A stretch of DNA of 64,000 nt, from NCBI GenBank assembly GCA_036705045.1, contig JAUBTR010000019.1. One strand, given 5' to 3'. How positions within the stretch are numbered: the stretch's first letter is position 1; every line of letters begins with the position of its first letter. The DNA comes from Microcoleus sp. BR0-C5 (GTDB taxonomy: Bacteria > Cyanobacteriota > Cyanobacteriia > Cyanobacteriales > Microcoleaceae). Below, piece by piece: positions 5,497 through 63,905 of this stretch. A program made the position numbers and the translations under genes. Below the pieces are notes generated by a model. The model worked only from the letters and a program-made list of their open reading frames with translations, had not been told where the DNA came from and searched no databases.

Positions 5497-5521
5497 ATGT
5501 GACATTTTGCACCAATATAAA

Positions 5522-9494: not shown

Positions 9495-9533
9495 GATTTT
9501 AGATTTTAGATTTTAGATTTTAGATTTTAGAAT
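9495..9533. repeat. STRR heptamer array (GATTTTA)n; related arrays lie at 9652-9676, 10258-10291, 13725-13755, 36939-36985 and 47908-47935
   Basis: 7-bp periodic tandem repeats, read directly. Confidence 0.9.
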
Positions 9534-9678
9534 TGAAGCATTGACCCCACGGATAAATTCGGGGGCTCCTTTATCGGATACAGGTTTTTTATTTCTGGAC
9601 GGATGAATCCGGGGGCTTGTATCCCGGATGCTTGATTGTCAGTTTTGCCCAATCTAAAATCTCAAATCTCAAATCGTA

Positions 9679-10212: not shown

Positions 10213-10485
10213 TGGTTGCTGCGAGCTAATTGTTGGCTGTTGGCATATCGAACAATTTGAGATTTGAGATTTGAGATTTGAGATTTGAGATTGACTTGAC
10301 AGATGAATCTGGGGGTTTGAACAAAGGTCAAAACTTTTTTTGCTGCTGTCGGTGGCGGATCTCTGTCTTCTGCAGGACTTACCCCGAACGGATGAAAAGC
10401 AGATGCTGCGATTGCTTGGCTGAGCGCGAACAATCACAGAAATACGTTATTTATGCCTCCTGGACTGTTCTAGTGAGGTCATAAG

Positions 10486-19315: not shown

Positions 19316-19500
19316 CTTGCACCATTGTCAGCAACAGGCAAGATGCCTGTTCCACAACAGATGAATTTTCTTTTTGCACCATTGTCAGCAACAGGCAAGA
19401 TGCCTGTTCCACAACAGATGAATTTTCTTTTTGCACCATTGTCAGCAACAGGCAAGATGCCTGTTCCACAACAGATGAATTTTCTTTCTTGTGGGGAGTA
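19316..19500. repeat. Tandem array of 3 x about 60 bp of the GAACAGGCAAGATGCCTGTTCCACAACAGATGAATTTTCTTT hairpin element
   Basis: Three near-identical direct copies. The overlapping six-frame ORFs (19288-19565) encode repetitive peptides and are artefacts. Confidence 0.9.
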
Positions 19501-29170: not shown

Positions 29171-29349
29171 GTTTACCTGTTAATTTTTTTTAAAAAAACT
29201 GAAAATCTCACGACAAACTTACTATCTATAGTCATCCTAAATGATTCAGATAAATTTGTAGGGTAGTGCCTTTCTTTGCCTACCCGCTATCTATCGGGCA
29301 ACCGGGCGTGGGATTGCCCCTACAATAATTATGCAAATGATGCGAGGAT

Positions 29350-36894: not shown

Positions 36895-37177
36895 AGCATA
36901 AATTTGCTCCTCACACCAGAGGTGCGTGAGCCATCAGTCGATTTTAGATTTTAGATTTTAGATTTTAGATTTTAGATTTTAGATTTGACTCCACATCTTA
37001 GATTTTAGAAGCCAAGACAGGCTTCCCAGTCCATACAGCTTGTTCGATAATGTCAGCGGCGCGCTTGACTCCGCCCGATCGCCTCTTGCATCTCGATCGC
37101 CCTTTGTTTATACGACTCTGGGGTTAGGACTTTCACAATTGCCGATCGGACTTTAGAAACGCTCAATCCTCCTATAA

Positions 37178-38021: not shown

Positions 38022-38252
38022 ATGTCTTTTGAATTTGAAGGGGTCAATCAGTTTTCTGCAGAAGTTGAGCAAGATTCTGCCGTGCAGCAGCAACAGCCGC
38101 CAGCCAATTCTGTTGCTGAAGAATTGAACGATACGGAATTAGATGCGATTGCAGGCGGTCATATGTTATGGGATTATATGGAGCAGTGGCGTTTAGATAC
38201 AGACAATCCTGATGATACTAAGAACACACCACCTCTGATGGCAGGATTCTGA
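38022..38252 (+). CDS. Double-glycine-leader peptide precursor A (core HMLWDYMEQWRLDTDNPDDTKNTPPLMAGF)
   Basis: Leader ends ...ELNDTELDAIAGG followed by H. This is the classical GG cleavage motif recognised by C39-peptidase ABC transporters. Confidence 0.6.
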   Translation: MSFEFEGVNQFSAEVEQDSAVQQQQPPANSVAEELNDTELDAIAGGHMLWDYMEQWRLDTDNPDDTKNTPPLMAGF

Positions 38253-38478
38253 CAACTCACCACAGTTGAAGTGGACTTAAGAACAATCTGACTTGCAAAG
38301 AATGCCTGTATGGCCTATAAAATCGCGAACGGAAATTCGTCAAAAAGCGTTAAGTCAACCGTATTGAATTTTAACTCAGTAGCGGGTAAAAAGGTTGGAT
38401 AGCAGGCAACTTTGCTAGGAGTTGGTTCGATCGCTTTTGGAAGCAAAATTCACTAATTATGTCAGGAGGAAACATCAA

Positions 38479-38727
38479 ATGGAAACCAACAATCAATTTT
38501 TGCAAGAAGTATCGCCCCTGTTGTCCCAAATCGCAGCATCAGAATCGGTCAACTCAATCGATGAAGAATTGAACGAATTGGAATTAGAGGCGATCGCGGG
38601 TGGCCATTCCAATATGGCCAATCGCGCTCGGGCTGCGGGTATTCCTGTGATCACAGGCAGCGGGCCAAGGCCGAAATTTGCTAGTGGTTTCTCCATGTAC
38701 GGAGAGGATAAAAAGAGCGTCTTCTAA
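38479..38727 (+). CDS. Double-glycine-leader peptide precursor B1 (core HSNMANRARAAGIPVITGSGPRPKFASGFSMYGEDKKSVF)
   Basis: AGGAGG RBS 8 bp upstream of ATG 38479; leader METNNQFLQEV...IDEELNELELEAIAGG. The ORF track's longer 38422 start lacks an RBS. Confidence 0.65.
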   Translation: METNNQFLQEVSPLLSQIAASESVNSIDEELNELELEAIAGGHSNMANRARAAGIPVITGSGPRPKFASGFSMYGEDKKSVF

Positions 38728-38780
38728 CTAGAAGCGATCGAGCTTCTGCTGAGTTCAGCCACATAAGGAGGAAACATCAA

Positions 38781-39041
38781 ATGGAAACCAACAATCAATT
38801 TTTGCAAGAAGTATCGCCCCAGTTGTCCCAAATCGCAGCATCCGAATCGGCCAACTCAATCAATGAAGAATTGGACGAATTGGAATTAGAGGCGATCGCG
38901 GGTGGCCATTCCAATATGGCCAATCGCGCTCGGGCTGCGGGTATCCCTGTGATCACAGTCAGCGGCCCAAGACCTAATTTTGGTCCAGGCCCGGCTATGA
39001 ATAAGGAATTCTTGGAAGCATTAAGGAATTTCGATCGCTAA
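38781..39041 (+). CDS. Double-glycine-leader peptide precursor B2 (tandem paralogue of B1 with a divergent core C-terminus)
   Basis: Near-identical RBS, leader and first 20 core residues to B1. The core tail diverges (…VSGPRPNFGPGPAMNKEFLEALRNFDR). Confidence 0.65.
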   Translation: METNNQFLQEVSPQLSQIAASESANSINEELDELELEAIAGGHSNMANRARAAGIPVITVSGPRPNFGPGPAMNKEFLEALRNFDR

Positions 39042-39123
39042 CAGAAGAAATGATCGGCTTGTAACTAGAAGCGATCGAGCTTCTGCTGAGTTTAAACACT
39101 CAAGGACAAAACATCAATGGAAA

Positions 39124-39155
39124 CCCAGTTTCTTAAATAAACTGGGTTTTTATTT
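39124..39155 (+). terminator. Rho-independent terminator (CCCAGTTT-cttaaata-AACTGGG + TTTTTATTT) after a truncated third precursor start
   Basis: Stem-loop plus T-tract read directly. It is preceded by ATGGAAACCCAGTTTCTTAAATAA (METQFLK-stop), a remnant of another precursor copy. Confidence 0.6.
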
Positions 39156-39442: not shown

Positions 39443-39682
39443 GCCTCATTCTGCTCGATTCATAGTGATGGCTGTAGGGGCGGGTTCGCCAAAATCTCGA
39501 ACACCGATCGAACAATTCCATAAACCCGCCCTCCCCCGCCTTGATTTACATCAACATTTTATCCTATAAATTAGCAGTTGATTTGTATTGTTGGTGGGTG
39601 GGGGCGGGTTTACGAGCTTGTTGATTTTTACCAGATATTGTTGGTGAACCCGCCCCTAGGGGTGTGTGAAATCGCGCTTACA

Positions 39683-42649
39683 TTACTCTAACTGTCGCTC
39701 AACTAATCTAGCAAACAATCCTCCCTGTTCGATCAATTCCTCAAACGAACCCACCTCCACCAAACGGCCTGCTTCAATTACATAAATGCGATCGGCATTG
39801 CGAACCGTACTCAGGCGGTGGGCGATGACAACTCGCGTCACATTCAACTTATCCAAACTCTCAGTAACGATCGCCTGCGTGCGGTTGTCCAAAGCACTCG
39901 TAGCTTCATCCATCAGGATAACCTTTGGTTTGACAACCATCGCGCGGGCAATTAACAATCTCTGCCGCTGTCCTCCCGAAAGATTCGTGCCGCCCTCGCT
40001 GACAACCGTGTGCATTCCCATCGGCATTTGTTCGATATCGGCGGCTAAACCGGCCATTTGCGCCGCTTCCCAAGCTTCCTCCTGCGTTACCATCGCCCCG
40101 CAGGTAATATTGTCAAACATTGAACCAGCATTAATTCTGCCGTTTTGCAGCACTACTCCTAACTGCCGCCGCACAGCTTGAACGTCGAGGCCTGCTAAAT
40201 CTTGATTGTCGTAATAAACAGTGCCGCTTTGTGCTATTTCAAACCCCAATAACAGCCGAAATAATGTTGATTTGCCACTACCAGACGGCCCGACGATCGC
40301 GATAAATTCCCCCGGTTGAATATTGATGCTGACATCATCTAAAATTGGGGGCCCGTCCTCCCGGTAGCGGAAAGTTGCCCTATCGACAGTAATTTGACCT
40401 TGCAAGCGGCCGGGATCGGCTTTTGTCGGGTCAGATTCCGGGATGCCCTGGACGATCGGTTTGGCTCGCTCCCACAGCGGTACAATTCCTAAAATATCAG
40501 TTAGGGTATTGCTCAAATCTGTGACGCCAGAAAGAAAGGTGCCGAAGGCGGAATTAAAAGCAAGAAAGGTTCCCATATTCAGTCCGCCTCCTCCTGTTTG
40601 AGGAGTTTGCATGAACACAATTGCAAACCAAAACATCAGAATAGAACTTACTAACGGCAGCGCTTCATTAAATACTGAAACACTGTCGTCAATTCGTTTA
40701 ATTCCTGTTCTTAGCTTGATTTGCTGGCTGTATTTTTTCGCCCAAGCTGCAAACGCTCGCCCTTCTGCAGCAGCTACCCGCAGCTTTGATACTCCGTTAA
40801 TTAGTTCTACTGTCAGCCCGTTAATGTCGCCTTCTCCTGTTTCCATCTGCCGCTCTTTTGGGATTAAGAGCAAGCTGGATGTAACTGTTACTATAACCGC
40901 AATAAGAGTTAAACCAATTCCGACTAAAGCCAGTGGCAGGCTGTAAATAAACATCAGCCCCAAATTCAGCAGGGAAAATATCGCGCTCAAAAGTGTCCGC
41001 TGCGTCGTGCCGCTGAGTTGGGCGCGAATTTGATTAACAGCTAATAAGCGAGTTAGCAAGTCGCCAGAAGAATAGGTGCGAAAAAACGCCGGTTTTAATC
41101 TCAGCAATCGATCCCAAACTGCTGGCTGGAGAGTGCCGCTGGCAACATTTTCGATCCGCAGCGTCAGAATGGTTTGGGCGATGCTAAATACAGCCCGTCC
41201 GATCGCCGCAACTAACAATACCAGCCCTAACTGCCACAGTAACAAACGATCGCTGTCAGGAATAGCATCATTGACCAAAATCGAGGTAGCTTGCGGCGTC
41301 ACCATCCCCAGCAGCGTTCCCAATATCCCCAGCCCGAAAGCAGCGATCATGTCTTTTTCGTAGCCCTTCGTCCCGAAGCGAAACAGTTCCGCAGCGTTGC
41401 GAACTAATAGCGGCAGCGGCCGGTAAAACATGAGAGTTTCTGGCGACAACTCTTGGGCGATTGCTTTAGTTACCCGTTGGCGGCTGCGGTCGATCGGATC
41501 GAACAAAGTATAAGGATCGTCCTTACCGGGCAACAAAGCTACAGGTCGATTGTCGGACTTTGTATAAGCCAACAGCGGGCCGCAGTTCTGCCGCCACCAA
41601 TATCCAACCAGCAGCACGCGGCGGGTGCGAAATTGGGACGATCGCGCGATCGCCTCCATCGGATCTTTAACTCGGCTGAAATCTTCGGAACCCGCCGGGG
41701 GATTGACTGTTATCCCTTGTGCCTTACCTACAGCCCCAGCAGCGATTAACAGCGGTGTTCCTTCCTCAGACAACACGATTTTCCGGGGATGCAGCACCTC
41801 GGTTAACTCTCCCAAAGCTGTCTGAGTGACTTGGCAGTTTAGCTGTTCGCGTTCCTGAAAGCGGCGGAATTCCTCGGCTTTTTGCCGGGAAACCAGCAAA
41901 TTCAAGCAGCAGCAGAAATACTCGTGCAGCAAAGCTAAACTCGCGCGCAGCCAGTCGGCATTTTCCACTTCTGCTGTTGAGAAAATTTGCACCTCAACTT
42001 CCCCGGATGCCACCAGCAACATATTCCCAGCCAGGGGAAACGCTGGGGAAGCGGAATTTAACTTCAATTCCCCGACACTCGCATCGCCCGACGAGACGCG
42101 CACCCAGACAACTGTTTCCGGCGGCGATCGCAGAATTTGACCGGGAATTAGCGATATCTGCTGCGAGGCTGCTACAACCCCAGTTTCTGGGGCAACTTTT
42201 TCCTCCGGCACGCGCGGCGGATCTATCCCGTAGGGAATCGCCCGTTCTCCCAAATGCTGTATCCACCCTTCCACAAGGGCGATGTTTTTGCCGTCACCAG
42301 CAGCCACTAAAGCGGCACAATCTGCGATCGCGATCTGTTCCAGTTCCGTTTCCGCGATTGCGATCGCCAGAAGTCCCCAACCTGGTTTTGAAATTTCTCC
42401 CCCCCTTGTAGGGGCGGTGCCCCCGTGCCCGCCCTGGTTGGGCGTGGTAGCAGCGCCAAACAAAGCCTCGCCTGCACTGACGCCGAACAGATAATAGCGG
42501 TTGCCCGCCGGCTTCTCACTTTGTATCTTGGCTGCAAAAACTGCGATCGCGCCCGATCGAACAATCCACACCTGATGCGGGTCATTCAGCAGCAGCGGTT
42601 CATTTCCTTTAATTCGGTGCAGTTTCTTAACAGGATTTAGATCGAGCAT
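39683..42649 (-). CDS. ABC transporter with N-terminal cyclic-nucleotide-binding-like domains (NHLM bacteriocin-system type, permease + ATPase fused)
   Basis: Walker A GPSGSGKST, signature LSGGQRQRL, Walker B ILMDEATSALD, six-TM ABC exporter core, and about 400 aa of N-terminal cNMP-like region. Confidence 0.75.
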   Translation of the reverse strand: MLDLNPVKKLHRIKGNEPLLLNDPHQVWIVRSGAIAVFAAKIQSEKPAGNRYYLFGVSAGEALFGAATTPNQGGHGGTAPTRGGEISKPGWGLLAIAIAETELEQIAIADCAALVAAGDGKNIALVEGWIQHLGERAIPYGIDPPRVPEEKVAPETGVVAASQQISLIPGQILRSPPETVVWVRVSSGDASVGELKLNSASPAFPLAGNMLLVASGEVEVQIFSTAEVENADWLRASLALLHEYFCCCLNLLVSRQKAEEFRRFQEREQLNCQVTQTALGELTEVLHPRKIVLSEEGTPLLIAAGAVGKAQGITVNPPAGSEDFSRVKDPMEAIARSSQFRTRRVLLVGYWWRQNCGPLLAYTKSDNRPVALLPGKDDPYTLFDPIDRSRQRVTKAIAQELSPETLMFYRPLPLLVRNAAELFRFGTKGYEKDMIAAFGLGILGTLLGMVTPQATSILVNDAIPDSDRLLLWQLGLVLLVAAIGRAVFSIAQTILTLRIENVASGTLQPAVWDRLLRLKPAFFRTYSSGDLLTRLLAVNQIRAQLSGTTQRTLLSAIFSLLNLGLMFIYSLPLALVGIGLTLIAVIVTVTSSLLLIPKERQMETGEGDINGLTVELINGVSKLRVAAAEGRAFAAWAKKYSQQIKLRTGIKRIDDSVSVFNEALPLVSSILMFWFAIVFMQTPQTGGGGLNMGTFLAFNSAFGTFLSGVTDLSNTLTDILGIVPLWERAKPIVQGIPESDPTKADPGRLQGQITVDRATFRYREDGPPILDDVSINIQPGEFIAIVGPSGSGKSTLFRLLLGFEIAQSGTVYYDNQDLAGLDVQAVRRQLGVVLQNGRINAGSMFDNITCGAMVTQEEAWEAAQMAGLAADIEQMPMGMHTVVSEGGTNLSGGQRQRLLIARAMVVKPKVILMDEATSALDNRTQAIVTESLDKLNVTRVVIAHRLSTVRNADRIYVIEAGRLVEVGSFEELIEQGGLFARLVERQLE

Positions 42650-42943
42650 AGCTAGTAATTGGCGATTAGTAATATCACGTCGGGCAGGGGTTTAAAGCCT
42701 TGCCTCAAAGAAGACAGTGCGATCGAATCGATCGGGCTAATCCACAGATCCTAGGAGTGATTAAAATCCCCGTCTCATAGCTAAAGTCGGTTAAAACCGA
42801 CTGAATAGCTAAGACTCCATAGCGAACACTGAATAGCCCTATCAAACCATCGCTCATTTCAGTCCTCTTGAGAGGACTTTAGCTATTAGACAGGGAATTC
42901 ATTCCCTGGCGGACTGTCGGGCTGGCTACTGTATTTCTGCTGT

Positions 42944-45154
42944 TTATTGTTCGTTCCCAACCAAAAGAGCATAAGCTCCTCCCAGCTTTTGCAACTCCTC
43001 ATGAGTGCCTCTTTGAACAACTTTCCCCCCTGCGAGCATAATAATTTCATCGCAATCTCGAATCGTACTCAAACGGTGAGCAACCACAATACAAGAAGTA
43101 CCGCGACGCCTTAAATTGCGATCGATAATTAACTCTGTTTCAGCATCCAGAGCACTCGTTGCTTCATCCAGCACCAACACCGCTGGATTCCTCACTAATG
43201 CCCTGGCAATTTCCAAGCGCTGCCGCTGTCCGCCGCTCATATTTGTTCCCCCTTCATTGAGTTGAGCATCGTATCCTCCCGGCATATTCAAGATAAGTTC
43301 GTGAATTGCCGCATCAATGCACGCTTGCACTAAATCTGCTTCCGGTACTGTCGGGTCCCAAAGCGTCAGGTTTTCCCGAACAGTGCCAGCAAATAGAAAT
43401 ATCTCTTGTTCGACCATTGCCAGCGAATTTGCTAGAATAGAACGGGGAATCAATTTGCGAGGAACCCCGTCAAATAAAATTTCGCCATTCATTGGTTCGT
43501 AAAGCCCGGTAACAAGTTTGGCAATAGTAGATTTACCAGAACCGCTGCCCCCCACTAACGCTACCCGCTGACCAGGTTTTACACTTAAGTTTAAGTCTTC
43601 AATTAGCGGCGCTTCCAAGCGGCTGTAGCCAAAACTGACACCGCGCAATTCAATGCTTCCTTGCAGGTAAAAAGCATCTAGTTCGATGGTGATTTGGTTG
43701 TTTTTACTATTAAAAGTATCGCGGTCTGCTTCTGGATCTATCGGGTTTTGCAGAACGTCATCAAGTCGGTTTAAATCGGCTTCTAATTCTTGCAGAGTGC
43801 TGCCAAAATTGACGAGATTGTTAACAGGTCGGAGGAATTGTTGAGTCAGACTTTGATAGGCAATTAACATCCCGATACTCAAACCGCCGTTCATTACCCG
43901 CAAGCCCCCGACAACTAAGATAGCAGTTGCAGCTAATGCCGTTAAAAATGCTGGTAATATTGATAAAATTTGAGTGGGCAAAGCCAATTCTTGCTGGGCG
44001 TTGCTCATTTTGGCATAGTATCCGGCAAACTTAGAAAATAAATCGAATTCTAAACCGCTAGCTTTGACAGTTTCTATAGATTGAATGCCTGCAATTGCAG
44101 CACCGCCAACCTTACCTGTTTCCTGAGCTAATCGGGTGTTAGCATCGACGCGGCTGCGGGATAAAGATTGCAGTGCCAAAAAGTTTAAGGCTGCAAAAAC
44201 GGCCGCAACACTGGTCAATACCCAGTCGTACATAACCATAATTATCGCATAGAAAACCATCATCACCGCGTCGATCGCAGTTGCAGCAAGTTTCCCCGAT
44301 AAAATTTCAGCAACCTTGTCATTAACTTGGCAGCGACTGCTAATTTCACCTGCAAACCGCTGGGCGTAAAATCCCACAGGCAAGCGCAAAGTATGCCAGA
44401 GAAACTGTCCCGACATCGAAATCGCAAGCTTGTTTGCCAGCCGCCGCAAATAGAAAAGTCGCATTCGCGCTAGCAGCCCTTGAATAGCCGCGGCAAACAA
44501 CATTCCTAATATTAAGGATCGCAGCCACTCCTGACGATTTTCGACGAGAATTTCATCTACAAAAATTTGGGTAAATGCCGCCCCAGCTAAACGGGGAACA
44601 GTCAGTAATAAACCAGCAATTAAACAAAATGCGATCGCCCAACGCGAACTTTGCAATCGGGAATCTAAAGCACGGGCAATACTCGGTTTTTTTCCGCCCT
44701 TTTTAAACTCCTGCCCCGGCTCAAAAGTCAAAACAACGCCAGTATAAGCAGACTTAAATTCTTCTAGAGAAACAGTCCTCGGCCCCGATGCGGGGTCGTT
44801 GAGATAAACGCGCTTTTTCTTCATCCCCTCAACCACCAAAAAGTGATTGAAATTCCAAAAAACAATAAAAGGTGGCGGTACAGCTTTCAACTCTTCGACA
44901 GTTTTTTTAAACCCTTTAGCATCTAAGCCGTAAATTCGGGCTGCTTTAAGGATATTAGAAGCTTTACTGCCATCGCGAGAAACGCCACACTCGCTCCGCA
45001 ATTGAGCTAAAGGTACCGGGTGTTCGCAGTAACTCAAAATAATTCCTAAAGCAGCAGCACCGCATTCTACTGCTTCCATTTGTAACAGGGTGGGAGTGCG
45101 AACTCGCCTTAATTTGCGCGGTGTAAAAAAGTTGTGAATCCAGGGTATTTTCAT
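42944..45154 (-). CDS. Peptidase-C39-domain ABC transporter (bacteriocin processing/export, permease + ATPase fused)
   Basis: N-terminal C39 papain-like domain with catalytic Cys in EAVECGAAALGII; Walker A GGSGSGKST; signature MSGGQRQRL. Confidence 0.85.
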   Translation of the reverse strand: MKIPWIHNFFTPRKLRRVRTPTLLQMEAVECGAAALGIILSYCEHPVPLAQLRSECGVSRDGSKASNILKAARIYGLDAKGFKKTVEELKAVPPPFIVFWNFNHFLVVEGMKKKRVYLNDPASGPRTVSLEEFKSAYTGVVLTFEPGQEFKKGGKKPSIARALDSRLQSSRWAIAFCLIAGLLLTVPRLAGAAFTQIFVDEILVENRQEWLRSLILGMLFAAAIQGLLARMRLFYLRRLANKLAISMSGQFLWHTLRLPVGFYAQRFAGEISSRCQVNDKVAEILSGKLAATAIDAVMMVFYAIIMVMYDWVLTSVAAVFAALNFLALQSLSRSRVDANTRLAQETGKVGGAAIAGIQSIETVKASGLEFDLFSKFAGYYAKMSNAQQELALPTQILSILPAFLTALAATAILVVGGLRVMNGGLSIGMLIAYQSLTQQFLRPVNNLVNFGSTLQELEADLNRLDDVLQNPIDPEADRDTFNSKNNQITIELDAFYLQGSIELRGVSFGYSRLEAPLIEDLNLSVKPGQRVALVGGSGSGKSTIAKLVTGLYEPMNGEILFDGVPRKLIPRSILANSLAMVEQEIFLFAGTVRENLTLWDPTVPEADLVQACIDAAIHELILNMPGGYDAQLNEGGTNMSGGQRQRLEIARALVRNPAVLVLDEATSALDAETELIIDRNLRRRGTSCIVVAHRLSTIRDCDEIIMLAGGKVVQRGTHEELQKLGGAYALLVGNEQ

Positions 45155-45213
45155 CGGCTATAAGGCTGAAACCCATAATAAATTTTGCTGGTATTCAAGT
45201 CTCGATCCCCCTA

Positions 45214-45293
45214 AATCCCCCTGATTGTTGGGGAGTAGGGGTTGACTTTGACTGCTCTTGTCCCCCCCTTCTTAAGGGGGGTTAGGGGGGATC
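45214..45293. repeat. MITE-like element with GATCCCCC(T)...GGGGGGATC termini; a second copy lies at 63707-63785
   Basis: Two copies share TCTTGTCCCCCCCTT...GGGGGNTAGGGGGGATCTAGA. Confidence 0.75.
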
Positions 45294-45433
45294 TAGACTT
45301 CGATATAAACAAGAGAGACGGTCGGTTTAATAGTAAGGTGCGTTAGACCCGAAATCCTCGATAATCATTCTAGAACTTCGTCTGACGCACCCTACAAGTC
45401 GATGGGAGTGTGACAGTTGGCCTTAGTCCTAAA

Positions 45434-47221
45434 TTAATAAACTCCTGTCAAAGACCGAAAAATAGGAATCACGTAAGAAATCGGCGCTAACTGCCCGATT
45501 TGAACCCTAACGAGCGCCGTAGTACCGGGGGAAATCTTGAGAGGAGGCCCGTTCGATGAAGACCATTTGTAACCGCTGATAGTGTTCGGATCTTGTTGCA
45601 ATTCCACAAATATTTGCACGGGAGCACCGCCACCAGCTATGTTTTTTGCGATGCTGTCAGCCAAATTTTCATTGCCGATAATTGACGACATATCTTGATT
45701 AGTAACCGGAAAAGGAGAAACTTGGGTTACTTTGCCGACAATGCCGCCGTAGCGTTCCCGCTTGACGACGCTAGGGGTAACTTGTACGGTCATTCCCGGT
45801 TTAATTTGCTTGCCGTCTCTGTCAGCAAAATAAACAAGACTGACCATTTTTTCGCGAGAATTTTTAGATTCAACTGTCCCGATCCTTGTACCGATGTTCA
45901 GCATTTGACCTGCAACGGCGCTAACTTCTAAAACGCGGCCGTCGTATTGGCTGGTAATTTTGCTGTCGGCTGTCAACTGATTCTGCAAGTGGGCAATCTT
46001 GCGTTTAACTTCCTGAATTTGATTTGTTTGGGCGATCGACTTCTCTAAATCTTGTTGAGCTAGTTTGACCGCTTGGGTTCCCATGTCTTTAATCTTAGTT
46101 TTGATTTCATCAATTTTGTTCAGGTTTTGCAGGTACTCCCGTTCGGTGTTACTTTTCTGAACTTTAAGTTCTTGGAGGTTGTTTTTAATTTCGTTAAGGC
46201 GGTTGAGATTTTGCAGGTACTCTCGTTCGGTATTGGTAGCTTCTACCTTGAGTTGCTGCCGGCTGTTTTTGAGGTCGTCAATTTTATTGAGATTTTGCAG
46301 GAATTCGCGATCGCTATTGGTTTTCTGAACGTCGAGTTCCTTTAACTGCGTTTCAATATCCGCCAATTGCATCTGAGAGTCCGCGAATTCCTGTCTCGCT
46401 TGCAGCATTACATCCTCGCTAATCGCCCTCTCTTGTTCGTAAAGAACGCGGCGAGTTTCAAACCGCTGCTGCAAAGTTTCCACCAAAGAAGTGATGTGCT
46501 GTTTTCGCTGCAAAAGACTGTCCCGTTTTTTGGCGATCGCGGCCAGAGTTTGCTGCCGCAATATCGGCGCAACTTGTTCTCGCCGCAAACTTTCTTCCAA
46601 ACTTTGGCGTTTTTCTGCTAATGCTGTCAGAGTTTGCTGCCGCAGTACCGGCGCAATTTGTTCGCGGCGCAAACTTTCTTCCAAACTTTGGCGTTTTTGC
46701 TCTAATGCCGCCATACTTTGCTGGTGCAATATCGGTGCAACTGACTCCCTATTCAAGCTTTCTTGAAGGTCTTTTTGCTGCTGTTCTAGGGTTTTTAATT
46801 CCAGGGCAATTTGCTGTTTTTGCAGCTTATTAGTATCTTTTTTTTGCCCTTGCAGTTGGGCTAACTTTGCTTTTTCTTGCTCTAACTGCTGCTTGAGGTC
46901 TAGTTTATCAATTCTACCGATTTCCTGACCCCGTTTAACAACATCTCCAGGCTTGATATTTAGCTTTACCAATTGACCGGAACTAGCAGCTTGAAATTGC
47001 ACGACTCGGCGGGGCAGAAGCAACACGCCTTGACCGGAAACAGTCAGCGGAATTCGCCCGATCGCACTCCAAACCCCCGCAGCAGCAACTAAACAGCCAA
47101 TTGCAGTTAGTGGCAGCCACGATCGAGGACTAACCACCTGCATCATTTGGTCGAGGCGTTCCGGCGAAGATAAGCGATCGATCGCTTCAGTAGTGAAAAG
47201 TTTGTTTTGTTTTACCTGCAT
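45434..47221 (-). CDS. HlyD-family periplasmic adaptor/secretion protein with expanded coiled-coil
   Basis: N-terminal TM, long coiled-coil with two internal 3x tandem repeat blocks, and a C-terminal beta-barrel HlyD domain. Confidence 0.8.
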   Translation of the reverse strand: MQVKQNKLFTTEAIDRLSSPERLDQMMQVVSPRSWLPLTAIGCLVAAAGVWSAIGRIPLTVSGQGVLLLPRRVVQFQAASSGQLVKLNIKPGDVVKRGQEIGRIDKLDLKQQLEQEKAKLAQLQGQKKDTNKLQKQQIALELKTLEQQQKDLQESLNRESVAPILHQQSMAALEQKRQSLEESLRREQIAPVLRQQTLTALAEKRQSLEESLRREQVAPILRQQTLAAIAKKRDSLLQRKQHITSLVETLQQRFETRRVLYEQERAISEDVMLQARQEFADSQMQLADIETQLKELDVQKTNSDREFLQNLNKIDDLKNSRQQLKVEATNTEREYLQNLNRLNEIKNNLQELKVQKSNTEREYLQNLNKIDEIKTKIKDMGTQAVKLAQQDLEKSIAQTNQIQEVKRKIAHLQNQLTADSKITSQYDGRVLEVSAVAGQMLNIGTRIGTVESKNSREKMVSLVYFADRDGKQIKPGMTVQVTPSVVKRERYGGIVGKVTQVSPFPVTNQDMSSIIGNENLADSIAKNIAGGGAPVQIFVELQQDPNTISGYKWSSSNGPPLKISPGTTALVRVQIGQLAPISYVIPIFRSLTGVY

Positions 47222-48082
47222 CAGCTATTCCTTTCGAGAGTGCGATCGCGGCTGTAAGCAGGGGTGTATTTGAAGGGGAAATTCCTTGCAAGTCAATTGA
47301 GGCACAAACAATTTCCCAACAAACGTTCAAAGCTTCCGTGCAATTACTTGAATGTTCTCACTCCTGTTTGCAGCTTGCCTGTAAAATCACTTTACGACAA
47401 TTAACCCTCGTAAGACCTAACTAACAGTAGAGTTTTCAGCTAACAAAAAGACCAGCTTACAGCCAGTCTTCCGACGGGGGAATGACCCGAACTTTTGGCT
47501 AGGTATCGCCCGCAGCCAGGGCCTACACATTGGTCACCAGTTAAGCTAAAAACACTTTTGTCAATGAGTAGAATTACTCTAAGGTATTGAAGTACCAACT
47601 TAAAATGTGCTGCGATTTGTTCAATGAGGTGGGTAAAACATTTACGACACCTGCAAGGATTGCTATATAGTTTGATTTTTGATAAAATTACTGAACCAAC
47701 CCTAGTGCAACAAAAGGTTCTAGCTTTGCTTGTGTTTCTCTAACTTATACGCAGTAAACCGGGCGCCCGAATCTTTCTTTAAAAAGCTTACTCTACACTG
47801 AATATACCTTTTGTCTAGTGGGGAAGTTCAGTGTAATTGGTGATTGGTAATTGTAGGTTGGGTAGAACGAAGAGAAACCGCACCTACAATTACTATTAAC
47901 AGTCAATCGATTTTAGATTTTAGATTTTAGATTAAAGAATTGAAGCATTGACTTGCGCGAGATAAATTCGGGGGCTTGCTTATCGGATACAGGTTTTTGA
48001 TTTCTGGGTCCTGAGTCTGCTTTCGGAATGAATCACGTGGCGGGTATCCTGGATGCTTTCGGTCAAAATCAAAAGTCAAAAG

Positions 48083-48816: not shown

Positions 48817-50241
48817 ATGAAAACTACCACAGAAAGCCTGCAGCTCACAGGTTTTGAAGAAATCTTAGAAGACCAGGAACTAACGGTTTCTTCAGCAGAT
48901 TACAGCCTTTTGACCGATCTCTACCAGCTAACGATGGCCGCTTGTTACGTCGGGGAAGGGCTCGACGGGCGGGCCGCGAGTTTTGAGTTGTTCGCGCGCA
49001 GGCTGCCAGAAGGTTTTGGCTACGCGATCGCGATGGGTTTGGCCCAAGTGCTCGACTATCTGGAGAAATTTCGGTTTTCTCAGTCGCAAATTCAGGCTTT
49101 GCAGTCCACTGGGATTTTTGCCGGCGCAGGAGAGCGATTTTGGACTTTACTCGCCACAGCCCGTTTTACTGGCGATGTTTGGGCGGTGCCGGAGGGGACG
49201 GCGGTGTTTGCCAATGAGCCACTGCTGCGAATTGAGGCTCCTCTGTGGCAGGCTCAGTTAGTGGAAACTTATTTATTGAATGCGATAAATTATCAAACTT
49301 TGATTGCGACGCGGGCCGCGCGGCTGCGCGATGTGGCGGGCCCGGAGGCTAAGTTGCTGGAATTCGGGACGCGCAGGGCTTTTGGGCCTCAAGCTGCTGT
49401 TTGGGCGGCTAGGGCTGCCCTGGCTGCGGGCTTCGATGGAACTTCTAATGTTTTGGCTGCTTTGAAGTTGGGCCGCAAGCCTGTCGGTACGATCGCCCAT
49501 GCTTTGGTAATGGCTGTGGCTGCCCTCGAAGGCACCGAGAATCAGGCGTTTGCAGCTTTTCACCGCTATTTTCCGGGGGCGCCGCTGCTGATCGATACTT
49601 ATGATACTGTGGCGGCGGCGCGGATGTTGGCCGATCAAGTAAACAGCGGTGAAATGCAGTTGGAAGGCGTGCGGCTGGATTCGGGCGATTTGGCGGTGCT
49701 GTCTCGGGAAGTTCGATCGATCCTTCCGGGCGTTCCAATTTTTGCTAGTGGTGATTTGGACGATCGAGAAATTGCTAAATTAAAAAGTAGCGGTGCTTGC
49801 ATTGACGGTTACGGTTTGGGAACCAAGTTGGTCAGCGGTTCCCCTGTGAACGGTGTTTATAAGTTGGTGGAAATTGACGGAATTCCGGTGATGAAAGAGG
49901 CAAGCGGCAAGGTAACATATCCAGGAAGAAAGCAAATTTTTAGACATATTGAAAATGGGCAAATTCTCGGAGATTGTTTGGGATTGTCGGGAGAAACTAT
50001 TAAAAATAGCGATGATTACGTACCATTAATGGAGTTGGTTGTCAAGGATGGTAAACAAGTCCAGAACCAGGAAAGTTTGGAGGAGATCGCCAAACGCACT
50101 GCTGCTTCTGTCGCCAGTCTTCGACCCGAAACTCGCCAACTTGACAACCCGATTTCGCCGTCAGTGGAAATTTCAACAGATTTGCAGACTCTCACCCAAA
50201 AAACGAAAAAGAGTCAATCGATTTTAGATTTTAGATTTTAG
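48817..50241 (+). CDS. pncB: Nicotinate phosphoribosyltransferase
   Basis: LTDLYQLTMAACY and GTRRA motifs are conserved NAPRTase blocks. The ORF track starts at 48799; the 3' end reads through into an STRR array. Confidence 0.8.
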   Translation: MKTTTESLQLTGFEEILEDQELTVSSADYSLLTDLYQLTMAACYVGEGLDGRAASFELFARRLPEGFGYAIAMGLAQVLDYLEKFRFSQSQIQALQSTGIFAGAGERFWTLLATARFTGDVWAVPEGTAVFANEPLLRIEAPLWQAQLVETYLLNAINYQTLIATRAARLRDVAGPEAKLLEFGTRRAFGPQAAVWAARAALAAGFDGTSNVLAALKLGRKPVGTIAHALVMAVAALEGTENQAFAAFHRYFPGAPLLIDTYDTVAAARMLADQVNSGEMQLEGVRLDSGDLAVLSREVRSILPGVPIFASGDLDDREIAKLKSSGACIDGYGLGTKLVSGSPVNGVYKLVEIDGIPVMKEASGKVTYPGRKQIFRHIENGQILGDCLGLSGETIKNSDDYVPLMELVVKDGKQVQNQESLEEIAKRTAASVASLRPETRQLDNPISPSVEISTDLQTLTQKTKKSQSILDFRF

Positions 50242-50351
50242 ATTTTAGATTGAAGTCAGTAGTCAGTAGTCAGTAGTCAGTAGTCAACAGTCAACAGTCA
50301 ACAGTCAACAGTCAACAGTCAACAGTCAACAGTCAACAGTCAACAGTCAAC
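50216..50351. repeat. Compound STRR array (GATTTTA)4-(AGTCAGT)4-(CAACAGT)n
   Basis: Three consecutive heptamer repeat types, overlapping the pncB stop region. Confidence 0.9.
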
Positions 50352-50366
50352 AATTACCGATTCCCT

Positions 50367-52127: not shown

Positions 52128-53981
52128 ATGAAAATTGCGATCGCACAACTCAACCCTACTATTGGTGATATCTTTGGCAACTCCAACCTAATTCTGGAGG
52201 CTGCGAAAAAAGCTGAGGTTGAGGGCGCAAACTTATTGCTAACACCGGAACTTTCCCTGATCGGTTATCCGCCGCGCGATTTGTTAATCAATCCGAGTTT
52301 CATTGCAGATGCAGGTGCACAGTTGCTGCAACTAGCGCAAGCTTTGCCACCGGAGTTGGCACTCATAGTCGGCACTGCCTTACCTAATGCTAATGCTGTT
52401 AAACTCGGCGGAAAATCATTGTTTAATAGCGCTGTTTTGTTGCAAAATGGCGTGGTCAAACAAGTTTTTCATAAACGCTTGTTGCCTACTTATGATGTAT
52501 TTGACGAAGATAGATATTTTGAACCGGGACAAAACAGCCATTATTTTACTATTGGCAAAGTCAAAATCGGCGTGACAATTTGTGAAGATTTGTGGAACAA
52601 TGAGGAGTTTTGGGGTAAACGCAGTTACGCGGGCGATCCTGTTTCCGATTTGGCAAAATTGGGTGTAGATTTAGTGGTGAATTTGTCGGCATCGCCTTAT
52701 TCTGCGGGGAAGCGGGGAGTGCGATCGGCTATGTTGCAGCACAGCGCCATCCGCTGCGGAATACCGATTGTTTACGCTAATCAGGTAGGCGGAAATGACG
52801 ATATTATTTTTGACGGCAGCAGTTTTGCTGTGAATCGAAAGGGTGATTTAATTCAGGTATTGGCTTCTTTTGAAACTGATTTGGCGCTGCTGGAATATGA
52901 CCCAGCTAAACAAGATTTAGTTGGCAGCGGGAACGGGCAAGATGCCCGTTCCACAACAGATTTGGGATTATGTGAAGGACGACAAAAACTAGGTTCGATC
53001 GGCAGTGGCGTTGGCAGCGGCGGGAACGGGCAAGATGCCCGTTCCACAACAGATTTGAGTTTTCATCCGGCAGAAGGAGATGCCGAAATTTGGGCGGCTT
53101 TGGTTTTGGGAGTGCGAGATTATGTTCGCAAGTGCGGTTTTTCTAAGGTTGTACTCGGTTTGAGTGGCGGGATAGATTCGGCTTTGGTGGCTGCGATCGC
53201 CAGTTGCGCGATCGGGGCCGAAAATGTTCTAGGGGTGTTGATGCCTTCTCCTTACAGTTCGGATCATTCTGTTAACGATGCTTTGGAATTAGCCCGAAAT
53301 CTGGGCATCGCGATCGAACTCTTGCCGATCGGCGATTTGATGAAAACTTACGATCGCACTCTAGCCAATTTGTTTGTCAACACAACTTTCGGGATTGCTG
53401 AGGAAAATATTCAATCGCGGATTCGAGGCAATCTGTTGATGGCAATTTCTAACAAGTTCGGACATTTGCTGCTTTCGACGGGCAATAAGTCGGAAATGGC
53501 GGTGGGTTACTGCACTCTCTACGGCGATATGAATGGGGGATTGGCGGTGATTTCCGATGTGCCGAAAACTCGCGTTTATTCGCTTTGTCGGTGGCTGAAT
53601 TCTGGCGGATATGTAGGGGCGGTGCCCCCGTGCCCGCCCTCTCCGTACCCACACCCGTGCCCGCCCCTGGGAAAGGAAATTATTCCGGTTAATATTATTA
53701 GTAAAGCGCCGAGTGCTGAACTGAAACCGGGTCAAATTGACCAAGATTCTTTGCCTGCATACGATGTTTTGGATGACATCTTGTATCGGTTGATAGAACA
53801 TCACGAATCTGCCCAAAAAATTGTCGCTGCAGGACACGATGAAGCGGTGGTTAAACGGGTAGTAAAATTAGTGAGGCAAGCGGAGTTTAAACGGCGGCAA
53901 GCAGCCCCTGGTTTGAAAATTAGCGATCGAGCTTTTGGTACCGGTTGGCGGATGCCGATCGCCAAATCTTCCTTCTATTAA
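52128..53981 (+). CDS. nadE: Glutamine-dependent NAD+ synthetase (CN-hydrolase + NAD synthetase domains), carrying in-frame repeat insertions
   Basis: N-terminal nitrilase-like domain (MKIAIAQLNP...), C-terminal PP-loop SGGIDSA. 617 aa, about 60 aa longer than usual because of the insertions at 52918-53060 and 53624-53672. Confidence 0.85.
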   Translation: MKIAIAQLNPTIGDIFGNSNLILEAAKKAEVEGANLLLTPELSLIGYPPRDLLINPSFIADAGAQLLQLAQALPPELALIVGTALPNANAVKLGGKSLFNSAVLLQNGVVKQVFHKRLLPTYDVFDEDRYFEPGQNSHYFTIGKVKIGVTICEDLWNNEEFWGKRSYAGDPVSDLAKLGVDLVVNLSASPYSAGKRGVRSAMLQHSAIRCGIPIVYANQVGGNDDIIFDGSSFAVNRKGDLIQVLASFETDLALLEYDPAKQDLVGSGNGQDARSTTDLGLCEGRQKLGSIGSGVGSGGNGQDARSTTDLSFHPAEGDAEIWAALVLGVRDYVRKCGFSKVVLGLSGGIDSALVAAIASCAIGAENVLGVLMPSPYSSDHSVNDALELARNLGIAIELLPIGDLMKTYDRTLANLFVNTTFGIAEENIQSRIRGNLLMAISNKFGHLLLSTGNKSEMAVGYCTLYGDMNGGLAVISDVPKTRVYSLCRWLNSGGYVGAVPPCPPSPYPHPCPPLGKEIIPVNIISKAPSAELKPGQIDQDSLPAYDVLDDILYRLIEHHESAQKIVAAGHDEAVVKRVVKLVRQAEFKRRQAAPGLKISDRAFGTGWRMPIAKSSFY

Positions 53982-54930: not shown

Positions 54931-55092
54931 AAAGGTAGATGAAATCATGTCTGTTTGATTCGGACTTGTATGATGTTAAATTTGGTAGGGGCCCGTGAGC
55001 CAACAATAATTGCCCATAATCTACAATATAATAAACCCGCCCCCGCCCATACTACCGGACATGATATGATTTGATCGCAGCATTAACCATTT

Positions 55093-57480: not shown

Positions 57481-57608
57481 AATCCATAATGAAGTAAGAT
57501 GAAGATTTGCCGTTGGGTGGGGGCGGGTTTTTGAGATTGTCTATTTTGGGAAAATATTGTTTGTAAAACCCGCCCCTACATGATTGTATAATCTGTTAAA
57601 ACAGAGAT

Positions 57609-57722
57609 ATTGCACCATTGTCAATTAGCCTTTTATGAACAGGCAAGATGCCTGTTCCACAAAATATAAATTTTCTTGTGGAACAGGCATCTTGCCTGTT
57701 GCTGAAAATAGTGCAAGATATC
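57609..57722. repeat. Nested palindromic hairpin element (same family as 9107-9227) immediately 3' of ureC
   Basis: ATTGCACCATTGTCA...GAACAGGCAAGATGCCTGTTCCACAAAATATAAATTTTCTTGTGGAACAGGCATCTTGCCTGTT...AGTGCAAGAT. Confidence 0.85.
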
Positions 57723-63624: not shown

Positions 63625-63706
63625 TTAGTAGGGCGGGCCGGGCCAGTCAAGGGGGTGTGAACTTAAGACTAAAGTCCTCTGTATCTCTCGCTTTTATCCG
63701 AGTCTA

Positions 63707-63785
63707 GATCCCCCTAAATCCCCCTTAAAAAGGGGGACTTTGAGCGCTCTTGTCCCCCCCTTTTTAATGGGGGCTAGGGGGGATC
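63707..63785. repeat. Second copy of the GATCCCCCTAAATCCCCC...GGGGGATC MITE-like element
   Basis: Matches 45214-45293. Confidence 0.75.
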
Positions 63786-63905
63786 TAGAGGAATGTGACT
63801 CAGACAGGAGACTGATACTAACTTTGACCTTAAGTTGAACTTAAATTAACACAAATGCGCGGCCCGCCCTAGTCATTACATCCAAATTTACCCTCAAAAA
63901 TTGAT

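What the first reader, a model, noticed from the sequence alone, without database searches (positions are those of the whole stretch)
42406..42445. Identical 29-mer GC-rich repeat in-frame in the cNMP-domain ABC transporter and in nadE on opposite strands
TGTAGGGGCGGTGCCCCCGTGCCCGCCCT occurs at 42408-42436 inside the minus-strand ABC transporter ORF, where its reverse complement is translated as …QGGHGGTAPTRGG…. It occurs again at 53624-53652 inside nadE, translated directly as …VGAVPPCPPSP…. Related GGGGCGGGTTT…AAACCCGCCCC palindromes occur intergenically (39475-39545, 39595-39660, 55030-55060, 57520-57590). One element tolerated in both orientations inside ORFs argues for strong selection on frame preservation, or for insertion-site preference for unstructured linkers.
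Basis: seen in the sequence. Interest (0 to 1): 0.55.

Follow-up and report, generated by a model that had tools for sequence, protein, structure and literature searches.

The report
REP hairpin repeat inside two genes
The repeated 29-mer is a 27-base "REP" hairpin element of the cyanobacterium Microcoleus, of the kind thought to be spread by a dedicated RayT-type transposase. It sits in-frame in surface loops of two real genes, a phenomenon already described for REPs in other bacteria, though it is unusually frequent in this family.

Summary
The exact 29-mer occurs twice, at 42407-42435 and 53612-53640, inside the NHLP-bacteriocin ABC exporter gene (minus strand) and inside nadE (plus strand). 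The window is from Microcoleus sp. BR0-C5.

The true unit is 27 nt: GTAGGGGCGGTGCCCCCGTGCCCGCCC. It has a GTAG tag, a 7-bp G/C stem and an 11-nt loop, with sharp borders and unrelated flanks at 100 non-redundant sites. Most sites are in Microcoleus, Tychonema and Oscillatoria.

In all seven contigs carrying the Microcoleus RayT-type Y1 transposase gene, exact 27-mers lie upstream in inverted orientation. In six of them a complete forward copy also supplies the stop codon; in the seventh the contig ends inside that copy. This is the canonical REP/RAYT arrangement.

Orthologues show empty and filled alleles. At nadE the gain is exactly 27 nt (9 codons) with no target duplication. At the ABC gene the gain is 57 nt (19 codons), a composite of the unit inside another palindrome.

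The unit is a multiple of three and open in 5 of 6 frames, so frame preservation is largely built in. The ABC insert lies in a low-confidence loop of a cNMP-binding-like domain. The nadE insert lies in a length-variable segment.

About 45% of sampled sites are intragenic, against 66% of random positions.

GTAG REPs, cyanobacterial RAYTs and intragenic REPs are all published, so this is a new member of a known kind.

The parts
42408..42434 (+). REP unit copy 1 (27 nt, GTAGGGGCGGTGCCCCCGTGCCCGCCC). It is read on the minus strand as GGHGGTAPT inside the ABC exporter gene.
   Evidence: Exact match. Predicted hairpin of GTA tag + 7-bp stem + 11-nt loop. GTA is invariant and the flanks are unrelated at 100 non-redundant sites.
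42393..42449 (-). The 57-nt (19-codon) segment present in the window, L047 and L128 but absent from orthologous empty alleles L126 and L127. It is a composite: the REP unit nested in an outer C-run/G-run palindrome (CTCCCCCCCTT[unit]TGGCTGGGGGGGGT in L047). The borders depend on the alignment and are good to about +/-8 nt.
   Evidence: DNA alignment A3 and protein alignment A2. The same composite has different flanks in L001/L035 and L110.
39683..42649 (-). Host gene 1: NHLP bacteriocin export ABC transporter permease/ATPase (NHLM_micro_ABC2) with N-terminal tandem cNMP-binding-like domains. The REP-derived peptide lies at about residues 68-90.
   Evidence: TIGR03797, 997 bits; AlphaFold pLDDT 82.5; residues 72-85 below 50; fold match to PKA/PKG CNB domains.
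53613..53639 (+). REP unit copy 2 (27 nt), read directly as VGAVPPCPP inside nadE.
   Evidence: Exact match. Orthologous single-unit alleles L131 (O. nigro-viridis PCC 7112) and L111, and empty allele L129, differ by exactly this 27 nt with no target duplication.
53640..53666 (+). Extra 27 nt (TCTCCGTACCCACACCCGTGCCCGCCC, read as SPYPHPCPP). It is a partial reiteration of the 3' half of the unit and is absent from the single-unit alleles.
   Evidence: alignment. Similar 3'-half reiterations occur in L010, L066, L074 and L095.
52128..53981 (+). Host gene 2: glutamine-dependent NAD+ synthase (NadE), 100% identical to the protein of Microcoleus sp. BR0-C5.
   Evidence: The insert falls in a segment that is gapped against solved NadE structures 4f4h and 5kha.
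52924..53062 (+). Two in-frame copies of a different hairpin repeat (GGAACGGGCAAGATGCCCGTTCCACAA, GTGG-tagged on the other strand) in the NadE inter-domain linker, read as GNGQDARSTTDL twice. A block of about 32-33 residues holding one copy is absent from many orthologues.
   Evidence: families D3, D5, D9; alignment columns 265-300.
29258..29323 (.). Intergenic inverted pair of related GTAG hairpins (REPIN-like). The right arm is GTAGGGGCAATCCCACGCCCGGTTGCCC on the minus strand. The pair is nested in a longer palindrome.
   Evidence: The same architecture holds the exact 27-mer in L046 and L105.
39474..39660 (.). Two intergenic long-loop palindromes (GTAGGGGCGGGTT...AACCCGCCCC, about 64 nt) downstream of the ABC gene. 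They belong to a separate dispersed family that shares the 5' 11 nt with the REP unit.
   Evidence: 17 copies across the window and the fetched loci.
57516..57580 (.). A further copy of the long-loop palindrome family.

Best explanation
The 29-mer is a 27-nt GTAG-tagged REP (repetitive 'extragenic' palindrome) of Microcoleus and its relatives. As single-stranded DNA it folds into a hairpin: GTA tag, 7-bp G/C stem, 11-nt loop.

Its cognate enzyme is a RayT-type HUH/Y1 transposase (RAYT). The Microcoleus copy of that gene is bracketed by exact inverted copies of this same 27-mer.

Inferred mechanism: the RAYT recognises the tag plus hairpin on single-stranded DNA and copies or moves units to new sites without duplicating the target. 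Because the unit is 9 codons long and stop-free in 5 of 6 frames, landing in a gene adds a short Gly/Pro/Ala-rich peptide and does not break the frame. Copies in surface loops survive selection; the others are lost.

After insertion, copies are inherited vertically. They then decay, or they expand by reiteration of the 3' half.

Steps shown here: the element's anatomy, its dispersal, the RAYT bracketing, the empty and filled alleles, in-frame translation and loop location. Steps inferred: RAYT catalysis and the selective filtering.
For: Anatomy and dispersal
- A scan with the 24-nt core found at least 118 loci. Most are in Microcoleus, Tychonema, Oscillatoria and other Oscillatoriales.
- At 100 non-redundant sites the preceding GTA is 98-100% conserved. 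The sequence beyond position -4 and beyond +1 is unrelated.
- The hairpin is predicted at -10 kcal/mol, z = -3.3. Sister variants keep the stem through two-sided changes: GGGGCAA/TTGCCCC and GGGACGG/CCGTCCC.

Link to the RAYT
- In all seven contigs encoding the Microcoleus RAYT (P0015 and P0021 clusters, named from Microcoleus sp. F10-C6, M. anatoxicus and N9_B4), REP copies lie upstream in inverted orientation: exact 27-mers in six, and in L120 a loop variant (GTAGGGGCGGTGCCAAGAGTGCCCGCCC).
- In six of the seven, a complete forward copy overlaps the stop codon, whose TAG is the tag's TAG. In L119 the contig ends 22 nt into that copy.
- The protein matches Pfam Y1_Tnp, and NCBIfam REP_Tyr_transpos at 54.7 bits. 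Homologues are named 'REP element-mobilizing transposase RayT' by JGI.
- Homologous RAYTs also sit next to the 27-mer in L066 and L011.

Insertion at the two window sites
- nadE: the empty allele (L129) and the single-unit alleles (L131, L111) differ by exactly 27 nt, with no target duplication.
- ABC gene: two empty alleles against three filled ones, a net gain of 57 nt.

Generality of intragenic copies
- 43 of 96 non-redundant sites lie in long open frames, against 66% of random positions in the same loci.
- 9 of 10 sampled host ORFs have Pfam domains.

Literature
- GTAG REPs, including cyanobacterial families, REPs that supply TAG stop codons, REPs nested in longer palindromes and intragenic REPs are described in PMC3733652.
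- Group 4 RAYTs are reported as common in Cyanobacteria in PMC5581495.
Against: - No RAYT gene lies in this 64-kb window. The BR0-C5 genome itself could not be searched, so the link rests on other Microcoleus genomes.
- The Microcoleus RAYT scores below NCBIfam's curated cut-off for the REP-associated transposase model (54.7 against 80 bits).
- RAYT activity on this sequence is untested, and RAYT-driven REP spread has not been reconstituted in vivo in any organism (own knowledge).
- The ABC insertion is not a clean 27-nt event. It is a 57-nt composite, and 13 nt of the empty allele do not align with it.
- Nearly half of sampled copies are intragenic, which is atypical for REPs.
Confidence: 0.78

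Rival explanations
1. It is a 'small dispersed repeat' (SDR) of the kind Elhai et al. described in Nostocales: a 21-27-nt element proposed to move through an RNA intermediate, independently of any RAYT.
For: The size is right (27 nt). Many copies sit inside heptamer tandem repeats (for example L006, L013, L020, L054, L064, L087, L088, L107, L113) and inside other small palindromic elements. Sister variants share a structure through compensatory changes. These are the hallmarks I recall from Elhai et al. 2008 (own knowledge; cited in PMC3116915).
Against: The exact unit brackets the RAYT gene in the canonical inverted arrangement in every Microcoleus RAYT contig examined. It carries the GTAG tag that defines RAYT-associated REPs (PMC3733652). 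No reverse transcriptase or RNA evidence was found. The two labels may describe the same elements, so this rival concerns mechanism only.
Confidence: 0.1
2. The RAYT association is incidental. Copies spread by recombination, template switching or slippage between pre-existing G/C-rich hairpins, with no dedicated enzyme.
For: The 3' half of the unit is reiterated in tandem in nadE and in L010, L066, L074 and L095, which shows slippage-type expansion. The ABC insert is a composite with imprecise borders.
Against: There are 100 non-redundant sites with the same sharp 27-nt borders and unrelated flanks. The nadE gain is a clean 27 nt with no flanking homology. The exact 27-mer also lies next to a RAYT in a Latescibacterota MAG.
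Confidence: 0.08
3. The sequence is kept for a protein-level role: a selected Gly/Pro-rich linker or motif shared by the two proteins.
For: Both copies are translated, and both are retained in many Microcoleus orthologues.
Against: The two proteins read opposite strands and obtain unrelated peptides (GGHGGTAPT and VGAVPPCPP). Across loci four different frames are commonly used. More than half of the copies are not in long ORFs. Orthologues without the insert exist. Within genes the peptide decays freely (VGATPPDQP, VGAVLSSP).
Confidence: 0.02

Closest known systems
GTAG-tagged REPs and their REP-associated tyrosine transposases (RAYTs, REPtrons), including cyanobacterial families GTAG-12/15/16 (Di Nocera et al. 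2013, PMC3733652; Bertels et al. 2017, PMC5581495; Nunvar 2010 and Ton-Hoang 2012 from own knowledge)
   Same: A 5' GTAG tag followed by a short G/C hairpin. A large loop, as reported for GTAG-15. Dispersed copies. Units paired in inverted orientation. Nesting inside longer palindromes. The tag's TAG used as a stop codon. A RAYT gene bracketed by inverted copies. Occasional intragenic copies.
   Different: The host lineage (Microcoleus, Tychonema, Oscillatoria) and this exact sequence were not found in the papers I could read. The intragenic share is much higher (about 45% of sampled sites) than the 'mostly intergenic' picture. The unit is exactly 9 codons. The identical 27-mer also occurs in Latescibacterota MAGs.
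Rickettsia palindromic elements (RPEs; Ogata et al. 2000, own knowledge; cited in PMC3733652)
   Same: Palindromic repeats inserted in-frame in many functional protein-coding genes, adding loop peptides at tolerant positions.
   Different: RPE-1 is much longer (about 100-150 bp), unrelated in sequence and not tied to a RAYT. The rickettsial short forms (RPE-4, RPE-6) are CGTC-tagged, not GTAG-tagged (PMC3733652).
Small dispersed repeats (SDR1-8) of Nostoc and Anabaena (Elhai et al. 2008; own knowledge)
   Same: Size of 21-27 nt, a shared hairpin supported by compensatory changes, and embedding in heptamer tandem repeats and mini-transposons.
   Different: A different cyanobacterial order. Sequence identity to any SDR family could not be checked because the paper is not held. 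An RNA intermediate was proposed there, whereas a RAYT link is shown here.
REPINs (Bertels and Rainey 2011, PMC3116915)
   Same: Many copies elsewhere are followed 10-40 nt downstream by an inverted sister unit (GGGGCAACCACGGGGGGATTGCCCCTAC), forming a larger hairpin.
   Different: Both copies in this window are single units (the nadE copy has a same-orientation partial reiteration). The two arms of the doublets are different sub-variants, not near-identical copies.

Membership tests
GTAG-tagged REP | Short (20-40 nt) imperfect palindrome able to form a stem-loop | tested here: met
   27 nt with a 7-bp G/C stem and an 11-nt loop. Predicted at -10 kcal/mol as DNA, z = -3.3.
GTAG-tagged REP | Conserved unpaired GTAG tetranucleotide at one end | tested here: met
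   At 100 non-redundant sites the three bases before the core are G 98, T 100, A 99, followed by the core's G.
GTAG-tagged REP | Many dispersed copies with unrelated flanks in one genome | tested here: inconclusive
   At least 118 loci in dozens of genomes, several per genome (for example at least 5 in Microcoleus sp. D2_18a_B4), all with unrelated flanks. There are 2 exact copies in this 64-kb window.
GTAG-tagged REP | Cognate RAYT gene flanked by the REP in inverted orientation (REPtron) | tested here: met
   Seven contigs with the Microcoleus RAYT carry REP copies upstream in reverse orientation (exact 27-mers in six, a loop variant in L120). A complete forward copy overlaps the stop codon in six; in L119 the contig ends inside it. 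It could not be checked in the window's own genome; there is no RAYT in the window.
GTAG-tagged REP | Extragenic location | tested here: not met
   Both window copies are inside genes. 43 of 96 non-redundant sites lie in long open frames. Intragenic REPs are, however, documented exceptions (PMC3733652).
GTAG-tagged REP | Binding and cleavage by the RAYT, dependent on tag and hairpin | not testable with these tools
   This needs biochemistry. The HUH motif (HIHG) and the conserved Tyr region (WQRNYHEHIIR) are present in the protein.
RAYT (REP-associated tyrosine transposase), for the associated gene | Y1/HUH transposase fold that passes the curated family threshold | tested here: inconclusive
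   Pfam Y1_Tnp is passed by the L066 homologue (36.2 bits against 23). NCBIfam REP_Tyr_transpos gives 54.7 bits for the Microcoleus protein, below its 80-bit cut-off. JGI names homologues RayT.
REPIN (inverted REP doublet) | Two REPs in inverted orientation separated by a short spacer | tested here: not met
   The two window copies are singlets. Doublets with a sister variant occur at other loci and at window 29258-29323.
Rickettsia palindromic elements | RPE consensus sequence and length (about 100-150 bp for RPE-1), in a Rickettsia host | tested here: not met
   The unit is 27 nt, GTAG-tagged, and found in a cyanobacterium. Only the in-frame behaviour is shared.
Elhai small dispersed repeats | Sequence match to one of SDR1-SDR8 | not tested
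   The paper and its sequences are not held. Size and nesting in heptamer repeats do match.

The most novel reading that the evidence does not exclude
This REP family may be specialised for living inside genes. Its exact 9-codon length, five stop-free frames and Gly/Pro/Ala-rich translations could let RAYT-driven insertion act as a routine generator of loop-length variation in Microcoleus proteins, with roughly as many copies inside genes as outside.

A linked possibility is that the REP or REPIN found in-frame in a fixed loop of many RAYT genes is a functional part of the system, for example a master copy or a cis-regulatory hairpin, and not an accident.
Probability: 0.15. Interest if true: 0.65.

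Novelty: new member of a known kind. Interest (0 to 1): 0.38.

Why it matters
For annotation, it explains odd Gly/Pro-rich stretches (VGAVPPCPP, GGHGGTAPT, RAGTGAPPLQ, RGGAPVPA) and length differences between orthologous Microcoleus proteins. It also warns that these stretches are not domain signatures or assembly errors.

For mobile-element biology, it adds a well-defined REP/RAYT pair from a cyanobacterial lineage with hundreds of sequenced strains. Empty and filled alleles are easy to find there, so the tempo and mechanism of REP spread can be tested.

The high intragenic share and the 9-codon unit make it a good system for asking how often REPs reshape proteins.

Tried and rejected
- The AlphaFold model of NadE, built from 20 near-identical orthologues, was unusable (mean pLDDT 33). 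The NadE context rests on alignment to solved structures instead.
- Pfam did not detect a cNMP-binding domain in the ABC protein by sequence. Only the fold search did.
- tblastn found no RAYT in the window itself.
- Rfam has no family at either copy.
- The ABC N-terminal protein search returned only 21 hits. They were enough for empty alleles but not for a broad census.
- Elhai et al. 2008 could not be read.
- Literature searches for a description of this repeat in Microcoleus, or of REPs inside RAYT genes, found nothing specific.
- A CRISPR array and a simple tandem repeat were considered and rejected: the copies are singletons 11 kb apart with unrelated flanks.
- A protein-level motif was rejected because opposite strands and different frames are read.
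- An assembly artefact was rejected because the same filled sites recur in independent assemblies (L047, L111, L128, L131).
Full report
**1. Observation**

The exact 29-mer TGTAGGGGCGGTGCCCCCGTGCCCGCCCT occurs twice on the + strand, at 42407-42435 and 53612-53640. None is expected in shuffled sequence, and there are no further copies within three mismatches.

- Copy 1 lies in ORF 39683-42649(-) and is read from the opposite strand as ..NQGGHGGTAPTRGGE...
- Copy 2 lies in ORF 52128-53981(+) and is read directly as ..YVGAVPPCPPSPYPHPCPPLGK...

Both ORFs are genuine genes. The first is the NHLP-bacteriocin export ABC transporter NHLM_micro_ABC2 (TIGR03797, 997 bits). Its partners, TIGR03796 and TIGR03794, lie immediately upstream. 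The second is glutamine-dependent NAD+ synthase.

The NadE protein is 100% identical to that of Microcoleus sp. BR0-C5, which identifies the source of the window.

**2. What the element is**

Nearly all are in Microcoleus, Tychonema, Oscillatoria and other Oscillatoriales. Several complete MAGs labelled Latescibacterota also have hits.

I aligned the flanks of all 126 copies and reduced them to 100 non-redundant sites. The results:

- The three bases before the core are G/T/A in 98-100% of sites.
- Position -4 is T in 61% of sites.
- Everything further out on either side is unrelated.

The unit is therefore 27 nt, GTAGGGGCGGTGCCCCCGTGCCCGCCC, with sharp borders. The two extra T's of the 29-mer are flank.

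As single-stranded DNA the unit is predicted to fold as GTA + 7-bp G/C stem + 11-nt loop (-10 kcal/mol, z = -3.3). Two sister variants keep the same shape through two-sided stem changes: GTAGGGGCAATCCCCCCGTGGTTGCCCC in cyanobacteria and GTAGGGGACGGTCCCTGTGCCGTCCC in Latescibacterota.

Copies are often nested in other repeats:

- in heptamer tandem repeats;
- in the loop of another palindromic element (..CCCCCCCTT[unit]T..TAGGGGGGATC);
- 10-40 nt upstream of an inverted sister unit. Window 29258-29323 holds such an inverted pair of related variants.

**3. Link to a transposase**

In locus L066 the unit lies inside and beside a 196-aa ORF that matches Pfam Y1_Tnp. A 39%-identical homologue sits beside two copies in a Latescibacterota MAG (L011).

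A protein search found thousands of homologues, many named 'REP element-mobilizing transposase RayT'. Two clusters are from Microcoleus: sp. F10-C6, M. anatoxicus and N9_B4.

In all seven contigs that encode these Microcoleus proteins, the gene is preceded about 35 nt upstream by one or more REP copies in reverse orientation. These are exact 27-mers in six contigs; in L120 they are a loop variant. In six contigs the gene ends in a complete forward copy whose GTAG supplies the TAG stop codon. In L119 the contig ends inside that copy. Copies of the sister variant are present in all contigs except the short L119.

This is the canonical REP/RAYT ('REPtron') arrangement. The Microcoleus protein scores 54.7 bits on NCBIfam REP_Tyr_transpos, below that model's 80-bit cut-off. 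No RAYT lies in the window itself.

**4. The two window copies are insertions**

*nadE.* Microcoleus orthologues range from 574 to 618 aa, and they differ at exactly this site and at the inter-domain linker. At DNA level:

- Microcoleus sp. A006_D1 has the empty site (..AGCGGAA|TGGGGAAAGAG).
- O. nigro-viridis PCC 7112 and L111 have one unit (..GGATAT|27 nt|CTGGGAAAGG).
- The window has that unit plus a further 27 nt, a partial reiteration of the unit's 3' half.

The gain is exactly 27 nt (9 codons), with no target duplication. Other orthologues show decayed versions, such as VGATPPDQP and VGAVLSSP.

*ABC gene.* Two Microcoleus orthologues (L126, L127) read GEALFGAALGYE-WGLLAIAIAE. The window, L047 and L128 carry 19 extra codons there.

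This insert is a 57-nt composite: the unit inside an outer C-run/G-run palindrome. The composite recurs with different flanks in L001/L035 and L110. Its borders are not clean, because 13 nt of the empty allele have no counterpart in the filled alleles.

**5. Why it is tolerated**

The unit is a multiple of three. Only one of its six frames has a stop, the TAG of the tag (direct reading of the sequence). Across loci, intragenic copies use four frames commonly and a fifth rarely:

| Peptide read | Copies |
|---|---|
| AGTGAPPL | 16 |
| GGHGGTAPT | 15 |
| VGAVPPCPP | 11 |
| RGGAPVPA | 8 |
| GRARGHRPY | 1 |

The AlphaFold model of the ABC N-terminus is good (pLDDT 82.5). It resembles tandem cyclic-nucleotide-binding domains. 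The insert forms a low-confidence loop (residues 72-85, pLDDT below 50) between two confident strands.

The nadE insert falls where solved NadE structures are gapped and variable in length. The NadE model itself was useless.

Of 96 non-redundant sites, 43 lie in open frames of at least 150 codons with at least 40 codons on each side. The same test gives 66% for random positions in the same loci. Nine of ten sampled host ORFs have clear Pfam domains; the hosts include an NRPS, an oxoprolinase, an aminotransferase and an FGGY kinase. Intragenic residence is therefore common for this family and only mildly selected against.

**6. Mechanism**

Shown here: the anatomy, the dispersal, the RAYT bracketing, the empty and filled alleles, the absence of target duplication at nadE, in-frame translation and loop location.

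Inferred, from what is known of E. coli TnpA-REP and IS200/IS605 enzymes (own knowledge; PMC3733652, PMC3116915): the RAYT recognises the GTAG tag plus hairpin on single-stranded DNA and disseminates units. Selection then removes disruptive insertions. Survivors are inherited, and they decay or expand by slippage.

Rival mechanisms are less well supported (see the rival explanations). They are RNA-mediated SDR-type mobility, enzyme-free recombination or slippage, and a selected peptide.

**7. Comparison with what is known**

Di Nocera et al. 2013 (PMC3733652) describe:

- GTAG-tagged REPs, including cyanobacterial families GTAG-12, -15 and -16 with large loops;
- nesting of GTAG-15 dimers in long palindromes;
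- REP termini that supply TAG stop codons;
- REPtrons;
- REPs entirely inside ORFs in several species, with Rickettsia RPEs as the classic in-frame case.

Bertels et al. 2017 (PMC5581495) report Group 4 RAYTs as common in Cyanobacteria.

What appears new is the particular family and its host lineage, its 9-codon unit, and its high intragenic share. I found no paper that describes it in Microcoleus.

**8. Verdict**

This is a new member of a known kind and of modest interest.

Two side observations may deserve more attention than the original finding. One is REP or REPIN copies in-frame in a fixed loop of many RAYT genes. The other is the identical 27-mer in Latescibacterota MAGs, beside a RAYT in one of them.

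Noticed in passing
L066:535-1125(-); L011:4260-4844(+); proteins P0001-P0120: Many RayT-type transposases of this family carry REP- or REPIN-derived sequence in-frame in one hypervariable loop. The loop lies just after the HUH motif and before ..DVVHRFKSLTT. It is 11 aa in the shortest proteins and up to 96 aa in the longest. Typical reads are VGAGPRACP...GQPQGVAPT. In L066 the loop holds the exact 27-mer plus two 15-nt reiterations. In L011 it holds that genome's own flanking REP. The Microcoleus RAYTs (19-aa loop) lack it. I found no description of this in the papers searched.
   Followed up: partly
L011, L016, L025, L037, L040, L052, L056, L067, L068, L070, L076 (Latescibacterota MAGs OZ253501, OY282377, OZ244960, OZ220741, OZ242320): The identical 27-mer, with the same GTA...CCC borders, is dispersed in several closed genomes labelled Latescibacterota. 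Their flanks are AT-rich and unlike cyanobacterial sequence. In L011 two copies lie next to a 39%-identical RAYT, which is itself flanked mainly by a different REP (GTAGGGGACGGTCCCTGTGCCGTCCC). This suggests either cross-phylum transfer of the REP/RAYT pair or strong constraint on the sequence.
   Followed up: partly
window 52924-52969 and 53017-53062 (also 5507-5631, 9140-9178, 19317-19487, 57622-57701, 58256-58313): A second hairpin repeat family (TTGTGGAACGGGCATCTTGCCCGTTCC, GTGG-tagged) is also inserted in-frame, twice, in the NadE inter-domain linker (GNGQDARSTTDL). A block of about 32-33 residues holding one copy is present or absent among Microcoleus orthologues. At 19317-19487 the repeat is part of three perfect 57-nt tandem copies.
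   Followed up: partly
window 39474-39535, 39597-39660, 54985-55047, 57516-57580; L033:5580-6860: A family of about 64-nt long-loop palindromes (GTAGGGGCGGGTT..36 nt..AACCCGCCCC). Only one end carries the GTAG tag, and two loop sub-types recur. L033 holds nine copies in 1.3 kb. The family shares its first 11 nt with the 27-mer.
   Followed up: partly
window 45161-45297 and 63664-63789: Copies of a further palindromic element (GATCCCCCTAA...CTTGTCCCCCCCTTCTTAAGGGGGGTTAGGGGGGATC). Its loop is a frequent landing site for the 27-mer in other genomes (L021, L031, L050, L069, L093, L100, L103). It is the probable source of the outer arms of the ABC-gene composite insert.
   Followed up: no
window 9489-9548, 10248-10293, 36934-37010, 47889-47948, 50200-50358: Heptamer tandem repeats (TTTTAGA, TTTGAGA, AGTCAGT/AGTCAAC) typical of filamentous cyanobacteria. 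In other genomes the 27-mer is often embedded in such arrays.
   Followed up: no
window 38100-39130 and 39683-47221: An NHLP-type bacteriocin cluster. Three paralogous small precursor-like ORFs have a conserved ..EELN..ELEAIAGGH double-glycine-like leader end (repeat families D4, D10, D13). Next to them lie ABC2 (TIGR03797), peptidase-ABC1 (TIGR03796) and HlyD (TIGR03794) genes. The HlyD gene contains three in-frame 84-nt tandem repeats at 46517-46768.
   Followed up: partly
window 59041-59327(+): An Rfam gathering-level hit to 5_ureB_sRNA (108 bits), antisense inside ORF 57725-59482(-). It probably reflects conservation of a urease coding sequence and not an sRNA, but this was not checked.
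   Followed up: no
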